DNA from: an uncultured Planctomycetales bacterium
GTDB taxonomy: Bacteria > Omnitrophota > Gorgyraeia > Zapsychrales > JANLHA01
NCBI GenBank assembly: GCA_964374105.1
Contig: CAYJXI010000001.1
Span: 135,743 to 199,742 of the forward strand
Reading direction: 5' to 3'
DNA: 64,000 nt
Below, piece by piece: positions 30,001 to 54,000 of this stretch. The stretch's first letter is position 1. Every line of letters starts with the position of its first letter. A program made the translations under genes and the position numbers. The notes below the pieces were generated by a model. That model worked only from the letters and a program-made list of their open reading frames with translations. It was not told the DNA's origin and searched no databases.

Positions 30001-33000
30001 GCTTGTTCTACACCCTGGCGGTTGGCGAGCTTAAGGGTTCCAATATGGAAGATTTTGATAAGAAGATCCTGCGCCGGATGGTTAATAAGGCCACCTGGGA
30101 TGAGGACGAAAACATGTACGACGCCTCAGTTTTAGGTAAGATCATTGAGGTGAATATTCCCGACTACAGTGATCGCTTCCGTATGATGAGGCGGAAATTC
30201 AATTCAGAAAATCAACTCTTTGATCCGAATACCTTTGCCATGCTGGCTGAGCCCTTCTTGACGGCCCTTTACGTCGCGGTCAAACGCGGCTATCGTGAAT
30301 TGCTTTCTATCGTGAATCCTCACGGCATTGAATTCGCACCTAGAGACATTATCTGGACCTTAGGTCCGCGTTATGAATTCCGGTTTATCCTCCTGGATTT
30401 CGAGACGTACTATAAACCGGATTTGACTTTAGAGACAGAGGATATTGAGAAATATCATTACTGGAGGCAGCGGTTGTCTTTATCTAAGGGAGAGGAGGGA
30501 CATCATCCTCAAGACCGCCACCCACCTGCCATGCAGCCGAAGTGGGAAGAGCGTTTTGAACGTGTGCAGACCGATAAACAAGGGGTGTACGATTATAAAA
30601 AACATAGGACGATGAGCCAAGAAGAGTGGTTCGTCACGGAGGTTGTCTCTCAACACGAAGAACGCGCCCGCGGATTCTGGTGGCGCGCCTCACCGGAAAA
30701 ATTCGTTCAAGATCACCCAAAAGTATTTTATCGCGCCCGCAACCGATGGGATACACCTACCCAAAAAGAACGTGCCATTCTTTTAGCCCTAGCTCAGAAA
30801 TCTGATCGTTTCTTCCATCGCGCCCGTAAGTTCGCGGTTTATAAAATGAAGCAAAATTTCTTCCATAAGCCGTTGATGCGAAGGTTGGTGCCGTTATTTT
30901 TGATCGGTCGAATGATTGATTTTGTGGTCAGTTTTGGAATTGCGTTTGATTCCCGCCAGTTCGCTTTAAGGGCGGCCGTTAATGTCCATAAGCGTTTTAA
31001 CCACCGGGTTTTCCAAAAGGGTGGTTTCTACGCAATGGCAGCCAAAAATGTGAAATATTCAATCTGGTCTAAACCCGTTAAAGAATTGTTCAATACCCAA
31101 TCTGGTATCGGTGACTCAGAAGCAAAAGGTAACAGTCACATTTTAGGAAGACAGACACTTGCCATGCAGCCGAAGTGGCGAGAGGCTTTTAAACAAATCA
31201 AGACGAAGGACCAAGCGGAAGAATTCTTATGGCAAACTGCTATTCAGGAAGAGACTGAACGTACTTTGGGTTTGAAACGTCTAGCATGGCAAGAATTTGT
31301 AGACAAACACACAGAGGTCTATGACGTGAAAACGGGTCACTGGCGTGAACCAACAAAACATGATCTCAGGGCGCTAGGCCGCCTAGCCCGTAAGATCAAT
31401 AAGATTTTTTATGAAGTCTTAAGCGATGCTCTTGTTTCCTTGTACGAAAATGTCCGAATAGATTATGAGGTCAACTATCCGCATATTGACAACGAAGAGC
31501 GTAAACGGCTTGTTGAGACTGAAGTCAAAGAAAAAGCACTCAAGGCTGCCCTGTATACCGCCATTGAGGAACATTACTTCTATAATCTCAATGTAATGCA
31601 AGCCGGCCAAGGCATCCTGGCGATGGTCAGTAGAGAAGGAGATAAGAATCGGAAAGATAAGAAAAAGATTCATAAAAAGGAAAAGAAAACTGAAAAGTTA
31701 ACGGCCAAAAAGGTACATGATCGCGCTTATGAAGCATTCGCTCAGTCTTTAGGCGAAGAAAGGTTTACTGAGCATAGCACGATCAGTGTTTTTAGTGAAA
31801 AAGGATGGATGGCAATATCCTTGAGCCTGGATGAATTAATTGATTGGTCCATCGCGACAACAGACGTTTTTTCCTCTGCCTTGGAAATCCTTGAGCCAAT
31901 CCTCGCTGAGGTTGGGAGCAAAAAGTCAGCCGAGGAGATTGTGGATTATTTTGTCGGATATTATGGAGAATATATAGCGAAGAAGGATGAACTCGATACG
32001 AAGGACGATTCCGCCTTGGAGCACGGGTTTAAAGATACCCTCCAGAAGAGACTTGGGCAGCCAGAAGAAGAAACTACGGAAGAAGTTGATGAATTAGATG
32101 ACATTGAAGACGATGATGATACTTATCCTTTCGCCATGCAGCCAAAGTGGCAACAAGCATTGAGCGAGGCCTTAAAAGCCGGGGATACCGAGCTGCTGGA
32201 ATTTCTAAGAGTGACCGCCCACCAAGAAGAAACATCCAGACACCGCGATACCCAGCCGGTCTCTGCCGAAGAATTTGCTAGATGGCATACCGAAGTCTTT
32301 GATGCTAATCTCATGGACTGGCGGCCGGCTCAGGAGGCGGATTACACGATCCTACTTGAACTCGGGTGGCAGACCGATACTATCTATTATCACACCTTCC
32401 AAGTAATTTATCGTTTCACCAGCGACATTGAGCGGGCGCATCATGTGGCCCTTAAGGTGGCCGCGGAAATTCATCTTCAACATAACCTGCATCAGTTTGA
32501 GGCAAGAGTTAACCCGAAAGAGCGGCCGCGCATTCTAGCTATTTCCGCAAGGGGTGTTGCCCATCAGTTTGTGGAGATTCCTCATCAGGTTTATGTGATT
32601 TCGGGTAACGCCTTGGTCGAGCAGAAAGGCCTTATCGATTTTGGAGTTGCCGAGGTTAGCCGTTATCCGAATGCGGTCGTAAAGAATGTTGCTGTTGAAA
32701 CAACCGGCGCTTTAATTCATGGCGGTACGATTTGGTGGGGTGTGAGGCCAGAGTTGAAAGATCGCCGCGATATCACCCTCGAATACCGCAAAGGCCAACC
32801 TTACCACGCTTGGGCCGGGGATCGGTATCCCACCAACTTCTTGCATCAGCCGGATAAGAATGTTCAAGAAATCACCGTTGAACCGGAACTGAGCAAGAAA
32901 GAAATTCTTTTGTGGGATAAAGGTGAATTGGTCTTGGCCTCCGGCCGCATGCGGCAGCAGCTTATATATTTCTCTATTTCTTATGGCGAAGAGCGGGCCT

Positions 33001-36000
33001 CCTTAGTTATTAGGCTTAAAGAGGAAGGTAGGGAATCTTTTAAGGTCAAGGCCTTTGTCATTCCCCAGGAATCTATCCCAGTTATCCGCCAGAAAGGGAT
33101 TCAGAGTTTAATCATGGCGACGTTTGCGGATGTCAATCACGGCCTGCTTTTAGGTTTATTTATTCCTGAGGAATACGTTAAATGGCTTCGTGGTGAAACG
33201 CCAGCTGTTCCGTTAGTCGTTTATGCCTATTCCAAGAAGCATAACTCCTCGCGGATCGCTGAACCGTTTATCTTGGATCTGCAGAAGATGATAAAGGGAG
33301 AGACGATTGAGCTAAGGCCTCAGGGAAGTCCTTGGTGGTACGGAAAGACAATTATGAATGTCTATCCTGATTCCCATAATCAGGCCATATTGCGCGGTCA
33401 TTTGAAATTTAGACTAGACGCCTTTGATCTTTTAGTCAATATGTCTGTCAAATTAGACCAGGAGTTTATTAAGAAATACGGCAGGGCCGACAAGTTTGAG
33501 GTCTACGCCGTTATCCAAAGGGATCCCAATCATGGTTTTGTGGTTACGGTTTATCACAAAGATGATTTTAATCCTGACAATCTTGAAAGTTCAAGGGATC
33601 CGTTGATGACCTATGCTTTGTTGGGAAGCAAATGGCGGCCGGTGGATTTGGCGGTGTTGGATATTATTGCCTTTAGTGAGGGGAGAAAAGACCTGGCGGC
33701 GACCGGCCGGAAAGTAAGGAGGAAAGCCTTTATCCTGAAAAATACTAAGTCAAGATTTTTAGGGAAAGGGATCGTGACGGTCAAGGCCGTTACGGATCAA
33801 AGATCCTTGGCCAAGACGGTGACCTTTGGTTTTACACCTGAGGAAGTCAGGCGCCATGATCTTGAGAATAATCCATTGATCTTTGAGTTAAAGGTTGATT
33901 CCGACTTTGGTTCCTACCTGAATATTTCTGTTGAAAGAAACGGTCAAGAAGAGTGGATGGCGACTTATTACTGGATCGCTGAGGCTAAACAGCAGCACCG
34001 GATGCGTGTTGATTTTAACCGGCTGGCCTTGATTGACCATGTTTCGGGGAAGCCCAATATTCACGGGCAGCCGGTTAAGCCGAGAGTCTACAGCCATGAC
34101 CTGCCTGTTCCTAACGGCGGATGGATTGTGCTGGGCGTCGGCCCCGAACGGCGGCTGAACGTTTATGGATTAGAACTGCTTAAAGGCAAGGTTCCGATAT
34201 TTATTCCTGAACCTCATGCGGAATACGGCTGGGTGTTCAACGTGCATGATGTTGAGGCCTACCTTAAGGATCGAAATCGCAAACCTGATGTTGTCTTGAT
34301 TAAGGACCGTAAGCGCCGGGACCCGAATGGATATGCCTTGGTTTTGAGGGAAGGATCCGGTATTGACTTGATTGACCCTCAGCGGGAGATTCCGATTACC
34401 AAGCGGGGATTAATAAAGCATTTTCATGATAAAGATGTTCGTGATCATTTCTTTGCCTTTAAAGAAATGATTGAGCAAAAGGCCGAGGGCAAAGATCTGG
34501 TTGTGATTGAAGGGATTCAGTTCTTGCAAAAACAGTATGTGGCAAGGGGGGCAAGGTATACGCAGTGGGTCTTTGCCCGAGGGGATATTGAGGCGGTGGC
34601 GCGGTTGACGGGCTGGCGGCTGAAGAGACAATCCGGCGGCAAAATCAAGGAGGACGAACAGGCGGAAGGCATGGCAAAAACTATCGGGCAGGCGAGTGTT
34701 GTGTACCAGATTTCCGGCAACCAACTCATCAAGGTGGGGGAGATGAACGCAGGGTTTGGGCCGGAAGAGGCAGCGAGTTATTCCGATGTTATTGTGAAGA
34801 ATGTCCGAACGGAGGTAACCGGTGCTCTTATCCACGGCGGCGTGATTTGGTGGGGGGCGATTGCAGATTTAAAAGACCGGCGTGATTTAACGGTTGAGTA
34901 CCGTGGCGGTCAACCCTTTCGCGCTTGGGCTGGCGATCGCTATCCCACCAACCGCCTGGATCAGCCGGATGAGGACATTGCCGCCATCATCATCCTTCCC
35001 GAATTGACACAGAGAGAGGTCATTTTATGGGATAGAAATCAATTACCCTTGGGATCCGGGCGCATGACGGAACGCGTGATTAAGTTTGAAGAAAGCCGCG
35101 GGGTCGAGCAGATCAATGTCAGATTCCACGATCGCGAAGTAGGGGTTAAGGTTCTGGTGATCCCTTATGAGTATGCGGTAAGAATTCGTGCACAGCGTAT
35201 CGAAAAGGCCGTTGTGGCTACCTTTGTTGATGAGTATTTAGGATTCTTTGTAGGAGTTTTTGTCCCCAATGATTATGAGAAATGGCTGAAAGGGGACGGC
35301 ACAGCCGCGCCTTTAAGTGTCTATGCGGTTGCGGGAAGACATCAGAGAGCAAGGATAGCTGATCCTTTTGTCATGGATATCCATAGACTGAGTACCGGTC
35401 GAGTGATTAAGGTGAGGCCTTCCGGCAGTCCTTGGCGGTACGGAAGATTTGCCTTGCGGCTGCAAAAAGATCATTCCGGAAAGAGCCAGTTATTTCTAGG
35501 ATCTATAAGACTTAGGTCATTGGCCTTTGATATTAATGTACGGATGTCATTTTCCATTAGCCCCGAAGAGGCCAAGAGACTTGGCATCAAAAATAAGGAT
35601 CAACTGTATGCGGTTATACAGGAGGACCCGAATCATGGTCCTATCGCCCAGATATATCGTTTAGAAGATTTTAATCCGAGCCAGCCGGAGAGTTCCCAAA
35701 ATCCGTTAAAAACGTATACCTTCTTTGGGGACAAGTGGATGGCCGTGGATTTAGCTGTGCTTGATATCCTGGCTTACGGCGAGGGAAGAAAGGACCTGAA
35801 AGCTTTAGGCCGGCAGGCCAGAAGAAATGTTGTCATCAAAAAGTCCGGGGATGAACGGACCGGTAGAGGGATAACGACCGTAGGGTTCTTCTTTTCAAAG
35901 CGAAAAGGTCAGAATGATGTTTTAGGTAATCGTGTGACCTTCGTATTCTCTCCGGCGGAGGTGAAACGGTTTAATTTAGAGAATAACCCGGTGATTTTAG

Positions 36001-39000
36001 AAGTGAAGGTCGATGATGATTTTGGCCCCTTTGTCGAGATCTCTGTGGAGAAGGATGGCAAGAGAAAAGTCATAGGAACGAATTATTGGATTGCCGAGGC
36101 CGTCAGGCAGCATAACATGCGTGTAAACTTAAACCGTTTGGCTTTAATTGATTTTGTTTTAGGCCGGACCAATATTCAGGGGTTGCCTATTAAACCTAGG
36201 CCGTATAGGCATTTTCGGCCTGTCATAGATGTTGGCCAGATTCAATTAAGGGCAGGGCCGAATCGTGCCATTTATATTTATGGGTTAAGAACATTACGCG
36301 GAAAGAAGCTGATATTTATTCCGAAGACAAGCCAGAAAATTCCCGGAAGGTTTTTTGCGGTCCATGATATCGAAGAATATAAAAAGAACAGGAAGCGTGA
36401 CCCTGACGTGATTCTGGTGAGGGATGCCTTGGCCAAGGCCCTGGTTCTGTTAGAGAGAAGAGAGGTGCAGTTTATTGATCCGCGCGAAGAGGTCATTGTG
36501 TCGAAACGGGGATTGGAGCCTTATTTTAATGCGAAGGCCGTCAAGGAAAGCGAGGTCTTATTAAGAAAGATTATTGCACAGGCGAAGGGAGAGGGTGAGG
36601 TTGTTATCGAAGGCATTCATTTTTATCAGAAAAGGAGACAACACCGCAGCAAGAAGGCGGTTATGGTCAAGTGGGTGTTCAAAAGGGCTGATATTCTCCG
36701 GGTGGCGGACATGATGGGCTGGGAGGTTAAGGGCAAGGTTATCGGCGCCTTCACACAGGAATTGAATGTTGATCGAAATATCGTGTATATCATTTTTGAA
36801 AATCAATTAATCAAACAAGAAGGTTCGTTTGCAGAGTTTGGTGCCCAGGAACTCCAAGGATATCCGAATGCGGTGGTGAAGAGCGTCTATACCGACACCC
36901 GCGGTGTGCTCATCCATGGGGGTGTTGTCTGGTGGGGCGCGAGACCAGATTTAAAGAACCGCCGCCATATTACCCTAGAATACCGGGAAGGGAAGCCGTA
37001 TCGGGCGTGGAACGGCGACCGTTATCCTACGGACCGGCTGGATCAGCCGGATGATCGTATTAAGTCGATTATCATCGAGCCCGAATTGACACCCCAGGAA
37101 ATTATCCTGTGGGATCAGGGGAAGATTGATTTGACGCCGGGCCGGATGATGGAGAAGGAGATTTCCTGGGTCAAATTTAAAGGAGAGGAAAAGGTCCAGC
37201 TGAGACTCCATGGCGGCAGCCTCGGAGAAAGGAATTTGATTGTTCCCGATGAACATCTGGCGAGGATGAGGCACGAGAAGATTGAGAGGATAGTTATCGC
37301 CACTTTTGCCGATGAGAATCTGGGATTGCTTTTAGGTCTTTTTGCTCCGGAAGATTATCGTCAATGGCTTAAAGGGGATCTGACGGTTGTGCCGCTCAGT
37401 GTCTATGCGTATTCTCAAAAGCGCAAATCTGCCCGGCTGGCTGAACCGTTTATTATGGATCTTTATCAGTTAAGTCAAGGGAAGCCCATTAAGGTTCGGC
37501 CGGACGGTAGTCCTTGGAAATATCGGAAGACCAAGGTCCATATTGTTATAAGCGATAGCCCCAAGAATCCCATGACTGTTTACTTAGATATGACGTTACG
37601 GAATTTTGATATCAAATCCATACGTTTGAGTATACCTCCCGAGAATATAAAGAAATTGAATGTTCATCGGGGAGACGAACTTATCGTGGCCATCATTGAG
37701 GACTTAAACCACGGTCCAGTGGCTTTAATTTACCGCGGCCAGGATTTTGATCCCGAGCATCCCGCATCATCAGCCAATCTGCTGTCGACTTATACCTTTG
37801 TTTATGGTAAATGGCGGACGGTTGATTTAGCGGTTCTGGATATTGTCGCCTTTACCGAAGGTCGGAAGGATCTTGTGGCTGCCGACCGACGGTTAATCAA
37901 AAAGGTTTTTATTTTTAAGGAAGGCAAAGGGGCTGTCCAGATCTATCTTTATGACAATAACAAGCGGATAAAAGATATCGTCTTTTCGTTTACGGCAGAA
38001 GATGTAAATCAATTTAATTTGAGGAACCAACCGGGTATTACTGAATTAAAGATAGATACGGATTACGGGCCTTACATTGAATTTTCTGTTGAGGAGGATG
38101 GGAAAACCATTGTGATTGGCACCAACATCTTCTTTGAAGAAGGCGAGAGGAGAATCGTCCGCATGGATTTAGACAAGCTGCGATTCATTGATTATATTTT
38201 AGGAAAAACAAATATTCATGGGCTTCCCATAAATCCGACGCTTTATCGTCATCCTTATGTTGTGCCTAAGGCAGGCGCAGTGAGTTTGCGCGAACGGGAG
38301 CAGACGGTCGTCATCCGCGACTTAAATTCGCTTATCGGCCGTCAAGTTATCTTTATCCCCGAGGTCCATCCTAAATACGGCTGGGTATTTAAGGTTCATG
38401 ACAGCCAGCAATACATCAAGAACCGTCTGCGTCACCCAGAGGCCATTTTAGTAAAAGCCCTTGAAGGAAATGCCTTGATCTCTCTTCAGAAACTGGAGGC
38501 TGATATCATCCATCCGGAAAGGGATGTGATAATCTCGCAGAAAGGATTGTCGGCTTATTACAGTAAAGCCGATACAGAAAATTTTGCAGCTCTCATCAAG
38601 AAGATCGAAGAAGCGGCGCAAGGAAAGACAGAAGTCACCCTAGAGGGTATCCCCTTTGTCAAGAAGCGATATGAGCATTATAAAGGACAAGGGTGGACTT
38701 TTGGCAAAGACGATATCTTCAATGTCGCTAAACTAATGGGCTGGAAGGTCAAGAAAGATATTATCCAAAAATCTTTAGAGGAAGAACTGCATAAGCTCTT
38801 TGAGGAGCAGGACCTTCTATTTTTGGCCAGTCGGTATTCCTTGGATATCAAGGACATCCTCTGGAAGCTGATCGGTTATCAGCTTAAGGGCCAATATGAT
38901 GAAAAGCAGATAGAATCTATTCTCAATCAGACGATTATTTCTATTATTAACCGTTATATCGAAACCAACGGCATTGATGAGGCCCTTAAGCACGCCCGGG

Positions 39001-45000: not shown

Positions 45001-48000
45001 GTCGATGGATAGCAAAAGAATTATTAAAAACTTATGAGGAGATGAAAGACATAGATTCGATTTCCCATATTCCACCCGCCCTGCAGCCGCACTGGCGGCA
45101 GGAATTCGATAAGCATCTAAAAATCGGGAATATTTTACAAATAATTGACTTGGCGGCTAATGTAGAAGAATGGAATCGCTCGCAGAATTTAACCCGCGGC
45201 CCGCCAAAAGAGTTTGTCCGGCCGCATGAGATGGTTTATTACGCAGACCGTGGCGTCTGGAACAAACTGACCTTCGGCGCCATCAGAGCGCTATTTAGAT
45301 TAGCCTATCAAACCGACAAAGCCTATTGGCAAGCCCGCAACGAATTCCTCAGTTACGCTAAAATTATTCTGAATCGTTCTACCGAAGATAAATTCGATCA
45401 AGAATCTGACCACCTCATTCTCGAAATCGCACATCGTCTCGGCGTTGAGGCCGCGATCGTTGTTCATCGGAATTATAATTTAGAGGTTCTGATAAAAAGT
45501 CAAGGCATCCTGGCCACCACGGCTTCGGAAGACGAAGCCAAGCGCGGTGGCTCCGGCAGCTCTGGTTCACATCGTGAACCAGCGGGAGCGATGGCGCAGA
45601 AGGATAAGAAGCGAACTCGGGATAAACGCTTTTCAGATGATACGCGAATCATCCAGTGGCGTCAGCGTCTAACTGAATCTGAAATTCTTGCTGTTAGTCA
45701 TCGATACAGTTCCTTTGAAAATAAAGGTAAAGGAGATGGACTCACGCCTGAGGGTGTTAACTATGTTAAGTTAGATCCAGAAGGAAGCTCCTTATTTCAT
45801 CTTGACTATTACTTGGAACGCATCAAAGCTAGATTTGGTGAAAAACTTGCTGCCAACAGAGAATCCTCGCTGGAAGTCTTGATGCTGGGGCCTGGGTATT
45901 TCTGGCAGGCAATTGTGGCGATGATCAAGGTGTTCCCACAAATTAGAGTTATCCATTTAGTGGAGCGTGATGCCAAAGCGCTAGAAGCTCTTGATCGCAA
46001 ATTGTCTGAGTATTCGGCTGTTGAAACCATGCCGGATCTTTTAGCTTATCAGATCAATCTGCTTGAATTGCCAGCGAAACTTACCAACCGTATCCATTTG
46101 GTGTTTGATGCAGAGCTTTTTGATCCAAATCATTTTTCACCAGGACATATCTTGCAGGCGCAAAAAGAATTAGTGAGGGTGCTAAAGCCAGGAGGGCTTC
46201 AGATCAGCTGGGACGTGCAACGCATGCCCGCTTATCATGACACGTTGCCTGTCGAATCAATGTTTGATTTGATGGCCAACCTTCATTTACGGCAACCAGA
46301 AATGGAAAAAGGTGACAGTCATCTTGGGGATGAGGATAAAAGAGACCATCCCCCCGCCATGCAGCCGCGCTGGGCGACGGAATTTGATACGACACTGAAA
46401 GAAGGCCGAGGATTAGCATTCGTTGAGGAAGTGGCTTACCGTGAAGAGATGGAAAGAACGACCCAGTGGATACGCGCCCCACCGAAAGATTTTATAAATA
46501 ACCACAAGGTCAAAGGTGTAGTGAGAGTCTACGATACCGCCCTTCACTATTGGCGAGGTGCCACCCGCTGGGACATTGGCCAGCTTCATATGTTGGCCTA
46601 TCTGACCGATGCCGAATATTATCTGGCCTTTTTGGAGGCGTTAAAGTCTAGAGAGAATGTTGAGTCCGCCCGCCGGGCCGGGATCAAGGTGGCCGCAGAA
46701 AGACATGCGCAATTCAATAGGGATGCCTTCTTAGCCAAGAAAGGCATCTTGGCGATGGCCGATTCATTTAAGCGAAGCTCGCTTAAGAGGCGCAAGGCGA
46801 TGGCCAATAACGGGCGCTTATCCAAAACTCATCAACTTCAGATTGATAGTGCAAAGTATCGAGATGATCTGGATTCCCTGCAAGCGAAGGTTGACTTATC
46901 TCTATCTCAAGGTCAAGAGGTTATGCTAAAAGTGGGCACGAAACGTTACCTTCTCCTTAAGTCTATAGGAAAGGCAATCTACACTGTGCAAAGAAGGAAT
47001 CCCAATGGGACCTTGGAGCGAAAATCGGTGCTGAGGCTTATCACTTCTTATCACGATGGCTTTGATATGGATCATCTGACTTATTATTATCAACGGATAC
47101 AGCCTAAAATCAAAAAAGATCCTCATCTTATCAATCCGTTTGTGGAAATCCTGTATCTCAATAAGAGATTGAAGATTTATGAGATGGAATGGGTGGAAGG
47201 GCAGCCGGCTTCTTTCCTTGATGACAGGATTCAACAATTGAATATTATCCTTCGATTGATGAAAACATTGGCTTACATTCATAAGCAGTATAAGGTCTTT
47301 ATGGGTGATGTGAATATGGCGGGGAATGTCTTTGTGACACCTTCAGGAACCATTAAACTGATCGATTTTGGAGAAATGCGTTTGTATCTTGGACGAAAGC
47401 AGAACATAGAAAGAATACATACCGCTAAGAAATTTTATGAGATTTTAAGCATCGCTGAAGATATTTATAAATTAATTTTTGGAAGATCTCCGAGAATTGA
47501 TCAGCATTTGATAACAGTGCTGTTTAACGAAGGCGAGATAGAGCCACGTCATTACCTATATCTTAGTTATGATGAGATCGAAAAAAAGACATTGAGCAAA
47601 GGAGAAAAACTGATCTTGAATGCTCTTCGTAAGGCGATCTTTGCCCAAGGGACATATTATAAATCCATGGAGGCATTTTATGATGATCTGGTTAATACCT
47701 TGGGTAACAGGGATCAAGAAAAATATGGGAGTCACGATCGGCAACACCCTCCTGCCATGCAATCCTTATGGCGTAAGGGATTTGAAGAGGCGGTGAAATA
47801 TCAAGAGGTGCAGGAATTCTTAGAAGAGGTGGCTTATCATGAGAAAGCCAATCGATCTGAAACCTTTGAACGGGCACCCCCCAGAGAATTTGTCGCTGGT
47901 CATCTTAAGGAAGTTTATGATGTGGCTTTACGCATTTGGCGCAAACCTACCCTTTCCGAATTGAAGACTCTTTATCGGCTGGCGAGGGAAACCGATAAAG

Positions 48001-51000
48001 CCTATGAAAGAACCTATCAAAGACATTACAATGAATTCCTTTCTTTAGTGCATTTCTTTAGGCCGTTGCTTAATGTGTTAGGGGTTGAAAAACGTACTCG
48101 TGAGCAAGCGATGAACATAGCCCGAGCCTTTGGTATCAGGGCGGCAACCAAGGTGCATGCGGCTTACAACGCCAAAGTCTTCGCAGCCAAGCAAGGCTTT
48201 TTGGCGATGGCTTACCAGAATGAAGAAGACAAAGTAATAAGGTTCACAAATATCTCAGAGGAGAATCTCACCCAAGGAAACGAAAATTCAAAAGCGACCT
48301 ACGCTGTCACCCTCAAGCAGATTGATGCTCACACCTGGATCGCCCAAAGCAGAAAAGGAATTTATCGATATCAACTAACGCCAATGTCATTGTCCGATTT
48401 AATACGATTGAAAAAACAAATCATCGAGTCTGCGAAGAATGGTGAAAGCATATCAGATCTCGCCAGCTATATCGATTCGCTCATAAACTTCAATTGGAAA
48501 AAGACCAGTGTGATTGTAGGGTTGTTCCTCAATGATCGGATCGTTGGTTTCTATGAATTTGATAAAGCCACCAATTACCTAGGCTTTATTATTGTTCATC
48601 ATCGATTTAGAGGGACAGGCGCTGTGGATATCCTTCTTGAAGACTTGGAAAGGAGAATATTTAACGGAGATAAAAAAGTAAAGTTGAATGCCTCCATTAT
48701 TCGTTTCTCTTTAAGAGCCGATGAGACCTTCGAAAGCGGCACGATCATGGAATTTAAGAAAGCGTTAGGGGTCTTGAGTGAGGTCACCCTATCCGTAAAA
48801 GATGAAAGTCAGCTTCCAGTGGGACAGCCGACAGCGATGTTACCTCGCTTCCGGAAACGATTAAAGCAAGCGATTGAAGGAGGGACACTCAAGGAATTCT
48901 TAAAAGAGGTGGCTTATTGGGAAGAGTCCAAGCGGAGAAATTATCCGGCCTCAGTGAGTCCGATTGAGTTTGTGCGCTGGCATAAACGAATTTTTGATGT
49001 TTCCACTGGCAAATGGCGAAAGCCAGATGAAAGCGACAAATTCCATCTTTTGAAATTAGCGCTTCAGGCGGATAGAGCCTATGAAAGGGCCATGATCAAG
49101 TTCTATGAAAAATACAAGGGGAATATCGACAAATCTCTTTGGGAAAGACCACTGTGGAGAATTTCTGCAGAGAAGATGAAGACCACTTTATTGATCTTGG
49201 CCGGAATGGCCCATGAGGAAGGACTTAAAGCCGCCAGTAGAGTCCATACTCAATATAATCTTCGTATTATGAAATCAAGAATAGGCATCCTGGCGATGGC
49301 GAATGGAGAGGATAAGAAGAAAAACTCTAAACCTTCGTTTGGCTTTTCTTATCCTGTGACATTGATCCAGATGGATTCTGTCACTTGGATGGTGGAAAGT
49401 AAAAAAGGTCGATATCTATTGAAGGTCTTAGGTTCAATTCATGATGGTATAGTTACCGTCCGTTTGATTTACAAAGGCGAATATGTCGGTTACTACGAAA
49501 TTAATTCTCACGATTTTTTTATAAAACATGTTCGTGTTGATGAACAATTCCAAGGGACAGGAGCATTTGATGTTCTTCTGGAGGATATGTTGATCAGAGT
49601 CTTACACGATGATCCCATAAGAGAGGTCCAAGCGATTATCATGCGGGACTCAGAAAGAACGGACCGGACCTTTAGGCGGGGAACATTGGCCGAATTTAAA
49701 CGAGCTTTAGGGGTTCTCAGTAAAGTCAAGGTTAAAAGGAAAGGTGACAACCACCTTAAAATGATGATGAAGAAATATAGGCTCAAATTGAAGACATCCG
49801 TTGCTCAAGAACATAAAGTGAATGATCCCGAACTTCCTGGCCTGCTTCCTATCTGGAAAGGGGAATTTGAACAACACAAAAAACAAGGACGAATTTTGGA
49901 ATTCTTGGCGATGGCGGTCTATTATGAAGAAAGCAAACGATCGATCAATCAAACCCGGGCGCCGTCCAAAGAGTTTGTGAAGGCGCATCGGCGTGTTTAT
50001 GATGTCACAAAAGGCAAATGGCGGAGGCCAAACTTCAGTGACAAAAAATCCCTCTTTAAACTCGCTAAATTAACCGACCAAGCTTATTGGCTAGCCTATG
50101 ATCAATTTTTAAAACGTGCTAAGACTTTTATTGATATTGCCAGTGATTTTGGAAATATTGCAGAAGTTGAAAAAGAAGCCAAAAATTTTGCCCATCGGCA
50201 AGGGGTTGAGGCGGCAACAAAGGTGCATCTTGAATACAATCTTAATATTTTAACATCGGGTGTAGGAATCTTTGCTCTGGAAGACGAACAACATTTGATT
50301 CATGGTTCCCAATGGGATGGATTCAAAGGAGTCATTTTTGATCTCGATGGTGTCATTGTTGACACAGGACATCTTCACAGACGTGCCTGGGAATTAACTT
50401 TGGATAGGCCCGTGGATGAGGTGATGGCCAAACGATATTTCCGCGGCAAGAGTGCTTTGGAGGCGGTAAGGGCCCTGATTGAGGCAGACCTGTTAACCGG
50501 GCTCGATGAATCTTCCATCCGGTATCTCAGCCATAAAAAAGTATCGATCTTTAATGATCTTTTCAGGACAGAAGGTGTTCAACCCTATGCGGGTAGCGTG
50601 AAATTCATTAATGAATTAAGACATGAGAATATTGTTCTGGGGGTTGGTTCTTCCAGTCCTATTGCCGAGGAAATCTTAAAGAGCATTGGATTAAGAGATT
50701 ATTTTAAGGCGGTTGTGGGAGGACGCGGCATCACCCAAGGCAAACCCCATCCGATGATCTTTCATCTGACAGCGGAAAAGATGGGATTGAATCCCGAAGA
50801 TATCGTGGTCGTGGGGGACTCTGTCCCGGATGTGCAGGCCGCGGTTCAAGGAGGATTTGGATTTACCATTGGGATCATTCGCGATGGGGAAGACAATAAT
50901 TATCAAGCGCTCCTTGAGGCCGGGAGTGATTTGGTTGTCAATGACTTAAAAGATATCAGTGTTGATCAAGTCAACAGACTCTTTATTGATAAGAGAAAGA

Positions 51001-54000
51001 GGATTGACATTATTAAAAATCAGAAAGAAGAAGATGACAGCCGTCTTGAAGTCTCAACGATAACTCTATTATTCAGGGATGTTGAGCAAATATTGAATTC
51101 GGGTCTGGATTACGAAGCCAGATTGCAGACCTTACGGCAGTACCATGACCGGCTTTTGGCTCAATCCATCCTGGATGTAAAGCAAAATCTGGATGCGCCG
51201 GTCGAAAAATTTGAGCATGAGATCCTGATGGCCGTTATCCGGCTGGCAGAAGAAAAAATCGGAAGATTCCCTGGCCGTTACGCCGTAACGATTGTGGGCA
51301 CCAAGACCACCCCATTTGCTGATTTAGATGTTTTGATTTTTGCCAACAGAAACAGACCCAAATATTTTAAGAAATTCATAGCGGAGATCCGAGCATCCGC
51401 AGAAAAGGTGGGATTGGTTATTGACCCTGTTCCGTTTAGGGTCATTCCAATAAGAAGGTTGAAGAAATATTACCAATACTTTGATGAGCGGGCTTTGTTT
51501 GTCGATATGGTTATCCGCTGGAATGTGGATTTTGTGGCACTCACACATCTTATGTCCATGCAGTTTATCGGTGGAGCAGAAAAATTCTACCAACGGGTTC
51601 AAAGAAAGGTGAGATCAAAGATTTACCGGTTAAGGCCTAAGAAAATCCATTTGATTGCCGAAGAGCATCTTACCCCGATATTCGGATACGAGGATAACAA
51701 GCGTTTCCACATCAAAGATGCCATGCACAATATCCACGACATTATCTTTTTCTATCGCCTGGTTTATGGCCATCGTGAACACAGGCTTAGGGAAGCCCAT
51801 AATGGCATGGACACACTAGAAGTGCTTAAAGACTTAAGTTTGATCTTGTTGGAGGAATACCAAATCCTGAAAGAGTTTTATGCATTGTTGATCCATCTGT
51901 TTAGGATTATTCAATTGAAGCACCAAAAAATTGTCGATGTCCTTGAGCCAACGGATTTTGCTCTGGTTGCGGCAGGTCTGGGATTAAGCGAATCTCAATT
52001 GAAGGATCAATTGGTTTTTTATAGTCTGGCCTTGGAGAAGAGCCGTAAATTCATTCAAGAAAATGTTTCCTTCTTGATTTCTGGTGAGCAAAGCAAAAAA
52101 GGTGGCAGTCACATTGACAAAGAACATAAGGAAGATGAAAAGAAACAAGGTTACTTTGGTAATCTTACCTTAAAGGATATTGATGCAATCGAAAAGGCTG
52201 TTGAATACCGTTTGTTTAAGATCATTCCACAATTCTTAGGGAAGCCGAAGTCCCAGGACACAAAGTTCTATGTTTTCGAGATCCCCGCTCAATATTTTTT
52301 AGAAAATTATCCCAAAAAACTCTTTATCTGGGCCCGCCTGCCAATGAGAGCAAAGGGCGGGCAGGCCAGGAGAAATCAAAGGGATGAGTTAGAGATCTTC
52401 TTCTCCTGCTCTCAATTCCTAAAACAGTTTGAAGAGAAGGTGGCCGGTCAATTAGCATTAGCCCTTGAGGCTGTTGCCTTGCATGAAACTTTAGAGCTCA
52501 GTTACCGAGAATTCTATCAATGGGATGATGCGCATCGAATGGCAGTTGGGTTTATGAAACAACAAAGTAGATTTGTGAAGATGATGGGACTCTTAGAAGA
52601 ATTATTTGCCGAGGTCACCGAACCCAAAGAATCTTTAGCCATGGGAACACATGAGGCTCAGGAATCCCGCGATCTAAGCCAACTCACCCTTAAACAACAA
52701 AGAGGTAGAAAATCAAAGATTGAAATAAGATTAGAAGACAAGGAAATGCTTGAGAAGATCAAGGGTAAAAATATGACCGAGGCCGCTTGGATCTTGGATG
52801 TCTCAGTGGCGGGCTTAAGGCTCTATTTAAAGAGAAATCCAGGGAAAGAGCAGGAACTAGGACTCCATAAGCAACGCGGAAAGAAGCCCAGACACCAGCC
52901 AGCCCCCATCGTTATTCAGAAAAAAGAATTGAGGGTAGAAGAATTATATCCTCTTATTTCCTCCTCACTGAAGTTCAATATTAATAAAGAAGAATATTCT
53001 AGGGCATTGAGATTGGTTGAGGAAATTCTTCTTCTGCCGGTTGAGAAGATTATGGTGGTTGAAGACGGACTCGAGTATCTAGCGGTCATGTTGACCTTAC
53101 TGGGCAAAGACGTTACCTATGTAGCCGAAACAAAGGTGGAAGCAGAGAATATGGTGATGTATATGCAGATCTTCCAAGACCGGGCGTTAGAAAAGGGATG
53201 GGATTTAAGTCTTAAATTTACGGCGATTGGGGGTGTCCAGCAAACCCCGTATGGTTTGGATATGTCTCCCGATGTCAATGATCTGGACATCGAAGCGGAA
53301 TTGGAGAGCTTCTTAGATATTAAGAGAACTCTGACCTTAGATTTACAGAAAGTCAATTTAGGCCTGGGGACGTTTGATTTTATCACCTTTGTAGATTTCA
53401 TGAGCCAGGGTATCCGACGTCCTTACAAGACTTGGCTTAAAGGTGCTAAGAGACATTTAAAAGAAGAGGGCTTTATCCTCATTGACGAATATAAACCCGG
53501 CCGGGATCAACAAGCCATGATTGATGATTTTAAAGTCATCTTCCCCCACCGCCAATTACTCACGAAGGAATCTTTCTTAGGGAGGGATGAGAAATCCAAA
53601 GCAAACCGATTTTACCGCATCACCCAGAATTCGCAAGGAAGATCACCGAAAGGCCAAGGTTATTTCGGCAATTTGCATAAAGACCATATCAGCGAAATCA
53701 AAGCCATCGTTAAGGCTGGAAAGAAAATCAATGTCATTCCAAAATTCAATAGACTCTTGCGCGCCATCGAAGGCGTGCCGGTTTTGTTCTTTGTCTTAAC
53801 CGAAAACATTGCCCGTGCGCCACCGGAAGGCTTTATTTGGGCACGGTATCATTTGGGTGTTATCCAAATATTTTTCTCTTTTGATTTAGTCGGACGATTC
53901 CATGATCGACTCCAAAACAATCTCAGCCAGGCTTTAGAGATTGTGGCCGTCCACGAATATCAGGAGATTATCCTCAAAAAATCCCATGAAGAGACAGACA

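What the first reader, a model, noticed from the sequence alone, without database searches (positions are those of the whole stretch)
31125..52115. Module boundaries are marked by a conserved junction word AAAGGTGACAGTCAY (K-G-D/N/G-S/N-H) related to the palindrome core
Several adaptor and payload junctions carry the peptide KGDSH, KGNSH, KGDNH or KGGSH. They are encoded by AAAGGTGACAGTCAT (46308), AAAGGTAACAGTCAC (31125), AAAGGTGACAACCAC (49750), AAAGGTGGCAGTCAC (52098) and GGTGACGGGCAC (43729). The shared GACAGTC core is also the centre of GGGGACAGTCCCC, which is translated KGDSP. A common DNA word at domain boundaries is what one would expect if cassettes were shuffled by recombination at a short signal. 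Alternatively it could encode a conserved cleavage or linker peptide.
Basis: seen in the sequence. Interest (0 to 1): 0.55.

Follow-up and report, generated by a model that had tools for sequence, protein, structure and literature searches.

The report
Linker motif in a giant gene
A five-residue motif (K/E-G-D/N/G-S/G/N-H) recurs in the flexible linkers just ahead of repeated "adaptor" domains of a bacterial protein of more than 21,000 residues; it most likely travels with duplicated modules and may be a worn copy of a widespread DNA hairpin, and I found no sign that it drives cassette shuffling.

Summary
The whole 64-kb window is one open reading frame of at least 21,332 aa. It is a multi-enzyme giant protein of the kind described in Omnitrophota.

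The junction word is real. The peptide [KE]G[DNG][SGN]H occurs 7 times against 0.12 expected. All 7 lie 5-32 aa upstream of an adaptor core, a zone that makes up 3.6% of the protein. Two reported coordinates are off, by 10 nt and 1 nt. The intact GACAGTC core is present in only one word. I found two further words (23169, 27081) and two decayed ones (47721, 48798).

The word sits in a disordered lead-in and is internal to the duplicated unit (payload, lead-in, adaptor). Homology between module copies runs through it. It shares no exact core beyond AAGG, forms no hairpin, and is absent from other giant proteins that carry the same adaptor. A recombination signal is therefore not supported.

Kinship with the palindrome GGGGACAGTCCCC is suggestive but unproven. 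All Asp codons are GAC and all Ser codons are AGT. Three words match the palindrome context at 12/15.

The palindrome pair is the more striking object. It is a 30-nt, stop-free hairpin found in many phyla, in frame inside ordinary genes and also between genes.

The parts
3..63998 (+). Single open reading frame of at least 21,332 aa, cut at both window ends. A multi-enzyme giant protein with GT4/GT1, sugar transferase, PALP, HEAT, SNF2 helicase, methyltransferases, ABC1-like kinase, GNAT, HAD, His-phosphatase and PPDK domains.
23169..23183 (+). Junction word GAAGGGGACGGTCAT (EGDGH). It lies directly before the DPTRSSRPL leader of adaptor B and 7 codons after a palindrome pair.
27081..27095 (+). 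Junction word GAAGGGGGCGGCCAT (EGGGH). It is the duplicate of the 23169 junction.
31125..31139 (+). Junction word AAAGGTAACAGTCAC (KGNSH), 11 aa before the LAMQPKW anchor of an adaptor A copy. It is preceded by GGTGACTCA (GDS) 18 nt upstream.
43725..43739 (+). Junction word GAAGGTGACGGGCAC (EGDGH), 17 aa before PAMQPKW. It falls in the part of the AlphaFold model with pLDDT below 50.
46308..46322 (+). Canonical junction word AAAGGTGACAGTCAT (KGDSH), 15 aa before PAMQPRW.
47721..47738 (+). Decayed word AAATATGGGAGTCACGAT (KYGSHD), 12/18 to the canonical word, in frame and 10 aa before PAMQSLW.
48798..48815 (+). Decayed word AAAGATGAAAGTCAGCTT (KDESQL), 15/18 to the canonical word. It aligns with KGDNHL of the duplicate module.
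49740..49754 (+). Junction word AAAGGTGACAACCAC (KGDNH), 32 aa before PGLLPIW.
52098..52112 (+). Junction word AAAGGTGGCAGTCAC (KGGSH), 16 aa before the QGYFGNL start of adaptor C.
18294..18323 (+). Palindrome unit GGGGACAGTCCCC followed by a degenerate second unit (GDSPPAGTTA).
19827..19856 (+). Palindrome pair GGGGACAGTCCCC-CAAA-GGGGACAGTCCCC (GDSPPKGTVP). RNA hairpin of -25 kcal/mol.
21279..21308 (+). Palindrome pair with spacer AAAA (GDSPQKGTVP).
23136..23165 (+). Palindrome pair with spacer AAAT; the second unit has a T at its centre (GDSPQMGTVP). It lies just after a transmembrane-like helix and just before adaptor B.
24977..25020 (+). Palindrome pair with spacer ATTC and complementary flanks GCTCAAG/CTTGAGC. 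The hairpin folds at -40 kcal/mol.
27033..27062 (+). Palindrome pair with one mismatch (GDSSQMGTVP). It is the duplicate of the 23136 junction.
28392..29081 (+). Adaptor A copy 1 (lead-in KGRRGS, no His).
30435..31103 (+). Adaptor A copy 2 (lead-in KGEEGHH).
31074..31736 (+). Adaptor A copy 3 (carries KGNSH).
32040..32699 (+). Adaptor A copy 4 (no word).
42333..43001 (+). Adaptor A copy 5 (no word).
43683..44348 (+). Adaptor A copy 6 (carries EGDGH). This copy was modelled: a helical core with no PDB match.
44976..45632 (+). Adaptor A copy 7 (no word).
46260..46874 (+). Adaptor A copy 8 (carries KGDSH).
47682..48350 (+). Adaptor A copy 9 (decayed word KYGSH).
48756..49403 (+). Adaptor A copy 10 (decayed word KDESQ).
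49710..50366 (+). Adaptor A copy 11 (carries KGDNH).
23073..23744 (+). Adaptor B copy 1: leader DPTRSSRPL, and H-E...H...E residues that are invariant across the B copies.
26979..27653 (+). Adaptor B copy 2.
54777..55490 (+). Adaptor B copy 3 (lead-in GYSHQDP, with different codons from the word).
56298..57017 (+). Adaptor B copy 4 (no word).
57693..58376 (+). Adaptor B copy 5 (no word).
61350..62045 (+). Adaptor B copy 6 (no word).
52140..52547 (+). Adaptor C copy 1 (QGYFGNL...HE), preceded by KGGSH.
53649..54017 (+). Adaptor C copy 2 (no word; lead-in GRSPKG).

Best explanation
The word is a short motif in the disordered N-terminal lead-in of the repeated adaptor modules of a giant multi-enzyme protein.

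Shown:
- It lies in hydrophilic, low-confidence linker sequence 5-32 residues before the first conserved motif of three adaptor types (A, B, C).
- It is internal to the unit that was duplicated (end of payload, lead-in, adaptor core).
- Intact, half-decayed and lost versions coexist among the eleven A copies.
- It is specific to this gene.

Inferred: it recurs mainly by descent, through module duplication within the gene, and is kept under weak peptide-level constraint (invariant Gly and His). It is probably a worn-down copy of the unit of the palindromic hairpin element GGGGACAGTCCCC. That element has no stop codon in any frame. As a 30-nt pair it adds exactly ten residues. It is found in many bacterial phyla both between genes and in frame inside genes. 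In coding DNA it can survive only where ten extra residues are tolerated, which means linkers and loops.

On this reading, both the palindromes and the word mark module boundaries as a consequence of tolerance plus inheritance, and are not the cause of cassette shuffling.
For: Location:
- 7 of 7 peptide hits fall in the 40-aa zone upstream of adaptor cores, which is 3.6% of the protein.
- The linker proxy places them mostly above the 90th percentile. The in-domain control GGDSH sits at the 17th percentile.
- In the AlphaFold model of adaptor A the word lies in residues 1-27, where pLDDT is below 50.

Descent:
- BLAST blocks between copies start 15-80 aa upstream of the word, e.g. 14556~15416 and 16201~16515.
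- In the duplicate pair 16252/16570 the word KGDNHL aligns base for base with the decayed KDESQL.
- Six of the eleven A lead-ins keep an in-frame DNA match of 12-18/18.
- Word-bearing copies are scattered over all sub-clusters of the core tree, which points to an ancestral state followed by loss.

Lineage specificity:
- There are 0 hits against 0.25 expected in 47 kaa of 21 other proteins that carry adaptor A.

Kinship with the palindrome:
- All 4 Asp codons are GAC (24% gene-wide) and all 3 Ser codons are AGT (19%), the palindrome's own codons. Joint probability is 2.5e-5; third-base agreement has P about 4e-4.
- Outside the palindromes, 4 15-mers reach 12/15 or better against AAAGGGGACAGTCCC, with 0.73 expected; 3 of them are words.
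- AAA-preceded palindrome units fit the word consensus with one mismatch.
- In adaptor B the word follows the palindrome pair like a third unit and can pair with it.
- GGGACAG-like second units lie 15-21 nt downstream of several A words.

Tolerance filter:
- The same palindrome pair sits in frame in a UvrD-like helicase, a type IX secretion (T9SS) C-terminal sorting domain, a PUFA-synthase linker and another Omnitrophota giant ORF.
- It shows a presence/absence difference between two orthologues.
- It also occurs in AT-rich intergenic DNA.
Against: - There is no continuum of decay. Matches to the 13-mer are bimodal: 0-1 mismatch for the palindromes, and 3 mismatches at chance level, which includes 46311.
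- All words share CAY (His) where the palindrome has CCC (Pro), and the A and C words share GGT where it has GGG. They therefore form their own family rather than independent decays.
- The test for a downstream second unit is only marginal.
- One lead-in encodes G-D-S with TCA rather than AGT. That points to peptide-level rather than DNA-level memory.
- Codon-level conservation is not unique to the word. The B leader TRSSRPL shows 0.57-0.66 codon identity against 0.19 expected, so a general process acting on conserved leaders, such as short-tract gene conversion, could produce the codon signal without any link to the palindrome.
- No orthologue of the gene was found, so selection could not be measured.
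Confidence: 0.45

Rival explanations
1. The word is only a linker motif inherited with the adaptor modules, as in the best explanation. Its likeness to the palindrome is then a coincidence of two Gly/Asp/Ser-rich linker sequences.
For: - Matches to the 13-mer palindrome are bimodal, and the 3-mismatch class, including 46311, is at chance level.
- Once homologous copies are counted as one, the excess of 12/15 matches is modest: P about 0.04 for 3 independent hits.
- The words share derived GGT and CAY.
- Other conserved leaders also show codon conservation.
Against: - The reading frame is the same, and the unusual GAC and AGT codons are the same.
- Three palindrome sites and the 46308 word share the upstream GAAAAAGG context.
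- In adaptor B the word is adjacent to the palindrome pair and can pair with it.
Confidence: 0.25
2. The word is a functional peptide signal. It could be a processing site, or a latency or docking motif, at the N-terminus of each module. It would be cut or bound by the zincin-like adaptor B and C domains, so that the giant protein is matured into module-sized pieces.
For: - Gly and His are invariant in all 7 words, while three of the five third-codon positions vary.
- The word lies in an accessible, disordered linker.
- It sits directly before the conserved DPTRSSRPL leader. In the adaptor B model (pLDDT 81) that leader is modelled as a short strand (residues 8-10), N-terminal to a domain with invariant H-E...H...E residues.
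- The top PDB fold matches of adaptor B are zinc metalloproteases: anthrax lethal factor, ZMPSTE24 and BlaR1.
- Cleavage of such giant proteins has been proposed, with the cleavage points unknown (10.1101/2023.11.21.568195).
Against: - The motif, or a remnant, precedes only 9 of 19 adaptor lead-ins, and it has decayed to KDESQL or been lost in others.
- It is absent from other giant proteins with the same adaptors.
- The protease fold matches are not significant (E 0.3-0.8), and the canonical HExxH motif is missing.
Confidence: 0.15
3. The word is a DNA-level recombination or gene-conversion signal at which adaptor-payload cassettes are shuffled.
For: - Third-base agreement among the words is above codon-usage expectation (P about 4e-4).
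- Lead-in segments (the word, and the B leader TRSSRPL) are more conserved at the DNA level than the adaptor cores. Repeated exchange at junctions would produce that pattern.
- The palindromes separate non-homologous blocks of 480-680 aa.
Against: - Homology between copies runs through the word and does not end at it.
- The words share no exact core longer than AAGG, which is too little for a site-specific recombinase or for homologous exchange.
- The A and C words have no secondary structure.
- The word is absent from other giant genes.
- The palindrome occurs in ordinary single-function genes where nothing is shuffled.
Confidence: 0.08

Closest known systems
Omnitrophota giant multi-enzyme proteins ('Archaeovorins', West-Roberts et al. 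2023 bioRxiv 10.1101/2023.11.21.568195; 'multi-enzyme metabolic cluster' class, 2026 bioRxiv 10.64898/2026.06.07.730766)
   Same: - One ORF of tens of thousands of codons.
- The same domain repertoire: glycosyltransferase group 1, methyltransferases, GNAT, HAD, PPDK_N, HEAT.
- Internal repeats that have diverged at the nucleotide level.
- Proteolytic processing has been proposed for these proteins, with the cleavage points unknown.
   Different: - A term search of both papers found no mention of a palindrome or a linker; their 'repeat' and 'module' mentions concern protein domains and Pfam co-occurrence.
- The source organism of this window is unknown, and no relative of it was found.
Rickettsia palindromic elements (RPEs): selfish palindromic DNA inserted in frame in protein-coding genes (from my own knowledge: Ogata et al. 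2000)
   Same: The palindrome pair is a dispersed repeat with dyad symmetry. It sits in frame inside functional genes, in loops or linkers, and differs in presence between orthologues.
   Different: - It is 30 nt long, against about 100-150 nt for RPEs.
- It is built from 13-nt units in tandem arrays of about 17 nt period.
- The identical sequence occurs in many phyla rather than one genus.
- The junction word itself is not palindromic.
REP / REPIN elements (repetitive extragenic palindromes; GTAG- and CGTC-tagged families, PMC3733652)
   Same: A short GC-rich hairpin, present in many copies per genome, often as doublets, and often intergenic next to T-rich tracts.
   Different: - There is no GTAG or CGTC tag.
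- It is common inside ORFs, in all six frames.
- The same sequence occurs across phyla, whereas REPs are lineage-specific.
- Association with a RAYT transposase (the REP-associated tyrosine transposase) could not be tested.
[quoted passage not shown]
   Same: Coding repeats whose DNA has dyad symmetry. They are dispersed patchily among distant microbes and arrayed in tandem inside ORFs.
   Different: PARCEL units encode a 25-residue amphipathic domain. Here the unit is 13 nt, or 10 residues per pair, encodes a Gly/Pro-bounded linker, and also occurs outside genes.
Conserved cleavage-site motifs of polyproteins (for example viral 3C or nsP junction motifs; from my own knowledge)
   Same: A short motif with invariant small residues at junctions between functional units, located in accessible linkers.
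   Different: The motif is present at fewer than half of the recognisable junctions and decays freely. No protease is demonstrated and no cleavage evidence is available.

Membership tests
Omnitrophota-type giant multi-enzyme protein (Archaeovorin class) | Single uninterrupted ORF of tens of thousands of codons | tested here: met
   Frame 3 of the + strand is open over all 21,332 codons of the window and runs off both ends.
Omnitrophota-type giant multi-enzyme protein (Archaeovorin class) | Many different enzyme domains of the published repertoire (GT1, methyltransferase, GNAT, HAD, PPDK_N, HEAT) | tested here: met
   Pfam hits match the domain lists quoted.
Omnitrophota-type giant multi-enzyme protein (Archaeovorin class) | Encoded in an Omnitrophota genome | tested here: inconclusive
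   No locus from the genome or metagenome scans matches the window. The only indirect hint is an Omnitrophota giant ORF (L056) that carries the same palindrome.
Site-specific recombination or cassette signal (attC-like or lox-like) | An identical core of several base pairs shared by all sites | tested here: not met
   The seven words share only AAGG plus scattered single bases. The consensus is RAAGGKGRCRGYCAY.
Site-specific recombination or cassette signal (attC-like or lox-like) | Homology between cassettes begins or ends at the site | tested here: not met
   Alignments between module copies start 15-80 aa upstream of the word and continue through it.
Site-specific recombination or cassette signal (attC-like or lox-like) | Dyad symmetry or a foldable site | tested here: not met
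   Four of the five A and C words fold no better than shuffles (z +1.15 to -0.04); 49740 reaches z -2.37, a weak -9.3 kcal/mol fold that is not a dyad. Only the palindrome pairs fold strongly.
Site-specific recombination or cassette signal (attC-like or lox-like) | A cognate recombinase nearby | not testable with these tools
   The whole window is one ORF and the flanking genome is not available.
Polyprotein cleavage-site motif | The same motif at most or all junctions | tested here: not met
   7 intact and 2 decayed copies precede the 19 adaptor cores. None flanks the other Pfam domains.
Polyprotein cleavage-site motif | Located in an exposed linker | tested here: met
   pLDDT is below 50 at the word. 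The surrounding composition is hydrophilic and disorder-promoting.
Polyprotein cleavage-site motif | A protease domain within the polyprotein | tested here: inconclusive
   Adaptor B has invariant H-E...H...E residues, and zinc metalloproteases are its top fold hits, but at E 0.3-0.8. There is no Pfam or PDB sequence match.
Polyprotein cleavage-site motif | Demonstrated cleavage at the motif | not testable with these tools
   This needs proteomics or biochemistry.
In-frame palindromic insertion element (RPE-like), with the word as a decayed copy | Dyad symmetry | tested here: not met
   This is met for the palindrome pairs (-25 to -40 kcal/mol) but not for the words. The words could at most be relics.
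In-frame palindromic insertion element (RPE-like), with the word as a decayed copy | Dispersed copies that keep host ORFs open, with presence/absence between orthologues | tested here: met
   This holds for the palindrome pair: more than 120 loci, in frame in real genes, and present in L017 but absent in L052 at one site. It could not be tested for the word, which has no orthologues.
In-frame palindromic insertion element (RPE-like), with the word as a decayed copy | A graded series of decay linking intact and relic copies | tested here: inconclusive
   There are no forms with 2 mismatches. However, words are over-represented among the nearest 15-mers, and the B word behaves like a third unit.
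REP/REPIN | A GTAG or CGTC tag at one end, and an associated RAYT transposase | tested here: not met
   The flanks of 66 aligned copies show no such tag (family definition from PMC3733652). The transposase association could not be tested.

The most novel reading that the evidence does not exclude
The palindrome pairs, and their worn descendants the KGDSH words, are seams. They would be former intergenic REP-like hairpins that became linkers when neighbouring genes fused into one reading frame, which is possible because the element is stop-free in all six frames and 30 nt long as a pair. If so, giant genes of this type would grow by read-through fusion across such hairpins, and the hairpins would map the ancestral gene boundaries, and possibly present-day processing or pausing points.
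Probability: 0.1. Interest if true: 0.8.

Novelty: new variant of a known kind. Interest (0 to 1): 0.4.

Why it matters
Giant bacterial genes are a recent discovery. How they are built and whether their products are cut into pieces are open questions, and the published work states that cleavage points are unknown.

A short motif that flags the start of adaptor modules gives a concrete, testable set of candidate junctions. It also helps to cut the protein into units for structure prediction.

The link to a stop-free hairpin element found across phyla, if real, would tie the modular growth of giant genes to a class of small repeat that can live inside coding DNA. As it stands, the word is a gene-specific linker feature of modest importance. 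The palindrome element deserves its own study.

Tried and rejected
- Searches for relatives of the window, which would have allowed measuring selection on the word, all failed. The adaptor A profile and a 740-aa segment found nothing in the 5.8-billion-protein collection. A 320-aa segment found nothing in JGI metagenomes. None of 134 fetched loci matches the window.
- Rfam found no family in the window or at palindrome loci.
- A literature search for the palindrome sequence returned only unrelated eukaryotic primer hits.
- Tested, no support found: word-bearing A copies forming one clade, with the word a recent acquisition. They are scattered over the tree.
- Tested, no support found: the word as a conserved feature of the adaptor A family in general. 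It is absent in 21 homologues, with one distant GDGH.
- Tested, no support found: an RNA structure at the A and C words.
- Considered and dropped without a test: the Shine-Dalgarno-like AGGTGA inside some words as a pause signal. By my own composition estimate the hexamer is expected about 20 times in the window, and only 3 of 7 words contain it.
- Considered and dropped: phage carriage of the palindrome. There are 0 hits in 2.9 million viral contigs.

Full report
**Context.** The 64,000-nt window is a single open reading frame on the + strand (codon i = nt 3i..3i+2). It has 21,332 codons without a stop and runs off both ends; no other frame stays open for more than 188 codons. Pfam finds a string of unrelated enzymes:
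- GT4/GT1 glycosyltransferases, a sugar transferase and a PLP enzyme
- HEAT repeats
- an SNF2 helicase
- several methyltransferases
- an ABC1-like kinase, a GNAT, a HAD hydrolase and a histidine phosphatase
- PPDK domains

This repertoire is the one described for Omnitrophota giant proteins ('Archaeovorins', and the 'multi-enzyme metabolic cluster' class). For those proteins proteolytic processing has been proposed, but the cleavage points are unknown. The source organism of the window could not be identified.

**Module architecture.** Self-comparison shows three repeated domain types with no Pfam match, which I call adaptors.
- Adaptor A is about 200 aa with motifs PAMQPKW ... FV..H..VYD ... 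W(R/K).PT ... VH..YN ... GILAM. There are 11 copies between aa 9464 and 16788.
- Adaptor B has a leader DPTRSSRPL, then ...INAPP...ALNT...HE...H...E. There are 6 copies.
- Adaptor C has QGYFGNL...APP...HE. There are 2 copies.

Enzyme payloads lie between adaptors. The order runs: methyltransferase, A, unknown payload, A, unknown payload, A, kinase, A, GNAT, A, unknown payload, A, HAD..., C..., phosphatase, B.

Adaptor A gives a confident helical model (core pLDDT above 90) with no match in the PDB. It has only 21 homologues among 1.84 billion representative proteins, mostly fragments of other very long proteins.

Adaptor B gives a model with pLDDT 81 and invariant H, E, H and E residues. Its best PDB fold hits are zinc metalloproteases, but they are not significant (E 0.3-0.8).

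**Checking the observation.**
- Three of the five reported words are exactly where stated (31125, 46308, 52098). One is 10 nt off (49740, not 49750) and one is 1 nt off (43728, not 43729).
- A codon-blind peptide search for [KE]G[DNG][SGN]H finds seven hits against 0.12 expected. These are the five reported words plus EGDGH at 23169 and EGGGH at 27081.
- The only other G[DNG][SGN]H lies inside the SNF2 domain and uses different codons.
- The DNA consensus RAAGGKGRCRGYCAY, with up to one mismatch, finds 13 sites against 0.25 expected: the seven words, five palindrome units preceded by AAA, and one out-of-frame in-domain hit.
- The claimed 'shared GACAGTC core' is intact in only one word. Outside the palindromes that heptamer is not enriched.

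**Boundary test.** I defined adaptor-core starts independently of the word: 11 A anchors, 6 B leaders and 2 C starts. All seven words then fall 5-32 aa upstream of a core, in a zone covering 3.6% of the protein. P is 7e-11 if the hits are treated as independent, and 4.5e-5 if only the three adaptor types are counted as independent contexts. None of the words lies in an annotated domain.

The surrounding sequence is hydrophilic and disorder-promoting, mostly above the 90th percentile. The in-domain control GGDSH is at the 17th percentile. In the AlphaFold model the word lies in the N-terminal tail with pLDDT below 50.

So the junction location is real, but it is not general. Ten of the 19 adaptor lead-ins lack a recognisable word, and so do all the other domain boundaries.

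**Why it recurs.** The word is part of the duplicated unit.
- Local alignments between module copies start well upstream of the word and run through it. For example, 14556-14685 against 15416-15547 starts 19-20 aa before both words, and 16201-16434 against 16515-16761 starts 65 aa before.
- In that last pair, KGDNHL (AAAGGTGACAACCACCTT) aligns base for base with KDESQL (AAAGATGAAAGTCAGCTT). KDESQL is 15/18 identical to the canonical word but has lost Gly, Asp and His.
- Another copy has KYGSHD at 12/18. Two have only K-G...(H), and three have nothing.
- Word-bearing copies are spread over all sub-clusters of the A core tree. The simplest history is an ancestral lead-in motif that has since decayed in part.
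- In 21 other long proteins that carry adaptor A the word is absent: 0 hits against 0.25 expected, with one GDGH about 55 aa upstream. It is therefore specific to this gene lineage.

**Peptide level or DNA level?** Both leave traces.

Peptide level:
- Gly2 and His5 are invariant in all seven words, while three of the five third-codon positions vary (GGT/GGG; T/C/G; CAT/CAC).

DNA level:
- All four Asp codons are GAC (24% of Asp codons gene-wide), and the Asn and Gly variants at that position also end in C.
- All three Ser codons are AGT (19%).
- Third-base agreement exceeds codon-usage expectation, with P about 4e-4.

This codon memory is not unique to the word. The adaptor B leader TRSSRPL shows 0.57-0.66 codon identity against 0.19 expected, whereas the A core is close to expectation (0.43 against 0.37). 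Lead-in segments in general are therefore more conserved at the DNA level than the domain cores. I cannot explain this with the data at hand. Short-tract gene conversion, a nucleic-acid function and a younger age of the leaders are all possible.

**Relation to the palindrome.** GGGGACAGTCCCC occurs at six junctions between 18.3 and 27.1 kb, five of them as a pair with 17-nt period (13+4+13 = 30 nt). The same DNA word is read in two frames, as GDSP and GTVP, so the palindrome is a nucleic-acid feature and not a peptide feature. The pairs fold into 13-bp hairpins of -25 to -40 kcal/mol (z -4.9 and -7.3). At 24977-25020 the stem continues into the flanks.

Evidence that the words are related to the palindrome:
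- They have the same frame and the same GAC-AGT codons.
- AAA-preceded palindrome units fit the word consensus with one mismatch.
- Three palindrome sites and the 46308 word share the upstream GAAAAAGG.
- Outside the palindromes, four 15-mers reach 12/15 or better against AAAGGGGACAGTCCC, with 0.73 expected from codon shuffles; three of them are words.
- In adaptor B the word follows the pair like a third unit and can base-pair with it.
- Several A lead-ins carry GGGACAG-like sequences 15-21 nt downstream of the word.

Evidence against:
- Mismatch counts to the 13-mer are bimodal, with no intermediates.
- All words share CAY where the palindrome has CCC.
- The test for a second downstream unit is marginal.
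- One lead-in encodes G-D-S with a different Ser codon.

I put the probability of common origin at a little over one half.

**What the palindrome is elsewhere.**
- The exact 30-nt pair occurs in more than 120 loci of reference genomes. These include Omnitrophota, WOR-3, Planctomycetia, Actinomycetes, Binatia, Patescibacteria, Oxalobacteraceae (including an isolate, Pseudoduganella flava) and others. Chance expectation, by my own calculation, is about 3e-4.
- A variant pattern gave 14 further metagenome loci. There were none among 2.9 million viral contigs.
- The pair has no stop codon in any of the six frames, and it is found in long ORFs in all six.
- Clear cases of in-frame residence are a UvrD-like helicase (same site in two MAGs), the C-terminal sorting domain of a beta-propeller protein, a PUFA-synthase linker, and another Omnitrophota giant ORF.
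- One site is occupied in one helicase orthologue and not in the other.
- In AT-rich genomes the pair sits between genes, next to T-rich tracts.
- I found no Rfam family and no paper that describes it.

These cases show that the element can live in ordinary genes where no cassette shuffling occurs, and that it sits there in loops and linkers. That is enough to explain why it lies at module junctions in the giant gene.

**Verdict on mechanism.**
- The best-supported reading (0.45): the word is a weakly constrained lead-in motif inherited with duplicated modules, and probably a worn copy of the palindrome unit. Both mark boundaries because only linkers tolerate them and because modules are copied together with their lead-ins.
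- Rival (0.25): the same, but without any kinship to the palindrome.
- Rival (0.15): a functional processing or latency motif linked to the zincin-like adaptors B and C. This fits the invariant Gly and His and the proposal that these proteins are processed. It is weakened by the motif's patchy presence and free decay.
No breakpoints lie at the word, the words share no exact core, and they do not fold.

**What is shown and what is inferred.** Shown: location, enrichment, membership of the duplicated unit, decay series, lineage specificity, codon bias, and the properties and distribution of the palindrome. Inferred: descent from the palindrome, the tolerance filter, and any peptide function.

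Noticed in passing
window 18294-27062 (six sites); loci L001-L134: The 30-nt pair GGGGACAGTCCCC-N4-GGGGACAGTCCCC is a stop-free hairpin found with identical sequence in many bacterial phyla. It lies in frame inside ordinary genes (helicase, T9SS sorting domain, PUFA synthase) and also in intergenic DNA. It is absent from 2.9 million viral contigs, matches no Rfam family, and I found no paper describing it. Its origin and mode of spread are unexplained.
   Followed up: partly
window 24977-25020: At this site the hairpin extends into the flanks (GCTCAAG ... CTTGAGC). The resulting hairpin folds at -40 kcal/mol (z -7.3) inside the ORF.
   Followed up: no
window 23184-23210, 27096-27122, 56391-56420, 57774-57800: The adaptor B leader (D-P-T-R-S-S-R-P-L) is conserved at the codon level (AGA/CGA AGC AGC CGG CCG CTC) among copies whose cores share only about 30% amino-acid identity. 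Codon identity is 0.57-0.66 against 0.19 expected. Lead-ins in general are more conserved in DNA than the cores, and this is unexplained.
   Followed up: partly
window 23073-23744 and five other adaptor B copies; adaptor C at 52140-52547 and 53649-54017: Adaptor B has invariant H123, E124, H140 and E147. Its alpha/beta model (pLDDT 81) has zinc metalloproteases as best PDB fold hits, but they are not significant. Adaptor C shares the APP...HE pattern. These may be an unusual or degenerate zincin domain repeated along giant proteins.
   Followed up: partly
window 28392-50366 (11 copies): Adaptor A is a helical domain of about 200 aa with no Pfam match and no PDB fold match. It has only 21 homologues among 1.84 billion representative proteins, nearly all fragments of very long proteins.
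   Followed up: partly
window 32589-38786 (aa 10863-12928): Three tandem copies of a unit of about 700 aa, 37-60% identical to one another. No Pfam family reaches its cut-off there; the only hit is DUF6301 at E 0.0034, 17.9 bits against a 27.2 cut-off.
   Followed up: no
whole window: There are only 2 cysteines in 21,332 residues.
   Followed up: no
window 31107-31160: Three successive G-x-S/Q hexapeptides with an 18-nt period (GGTGACTCA..., GGTAACAGTCAC..., GGAAGACAGACA...; peptide GDSEAK GNSHIL GRQTLA). This looks like a worn tandem array of palindrome-like units ahead of an adaptor A core.
   Followed up: partly
window 23070-23135 (aa 7690-7711): A hydrophobic, transmembrane-like helix (AAMVSLIIGGLTVWY) and a Lys-rich stretch lie immediately before a palindrome pair.
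   Followed up: no
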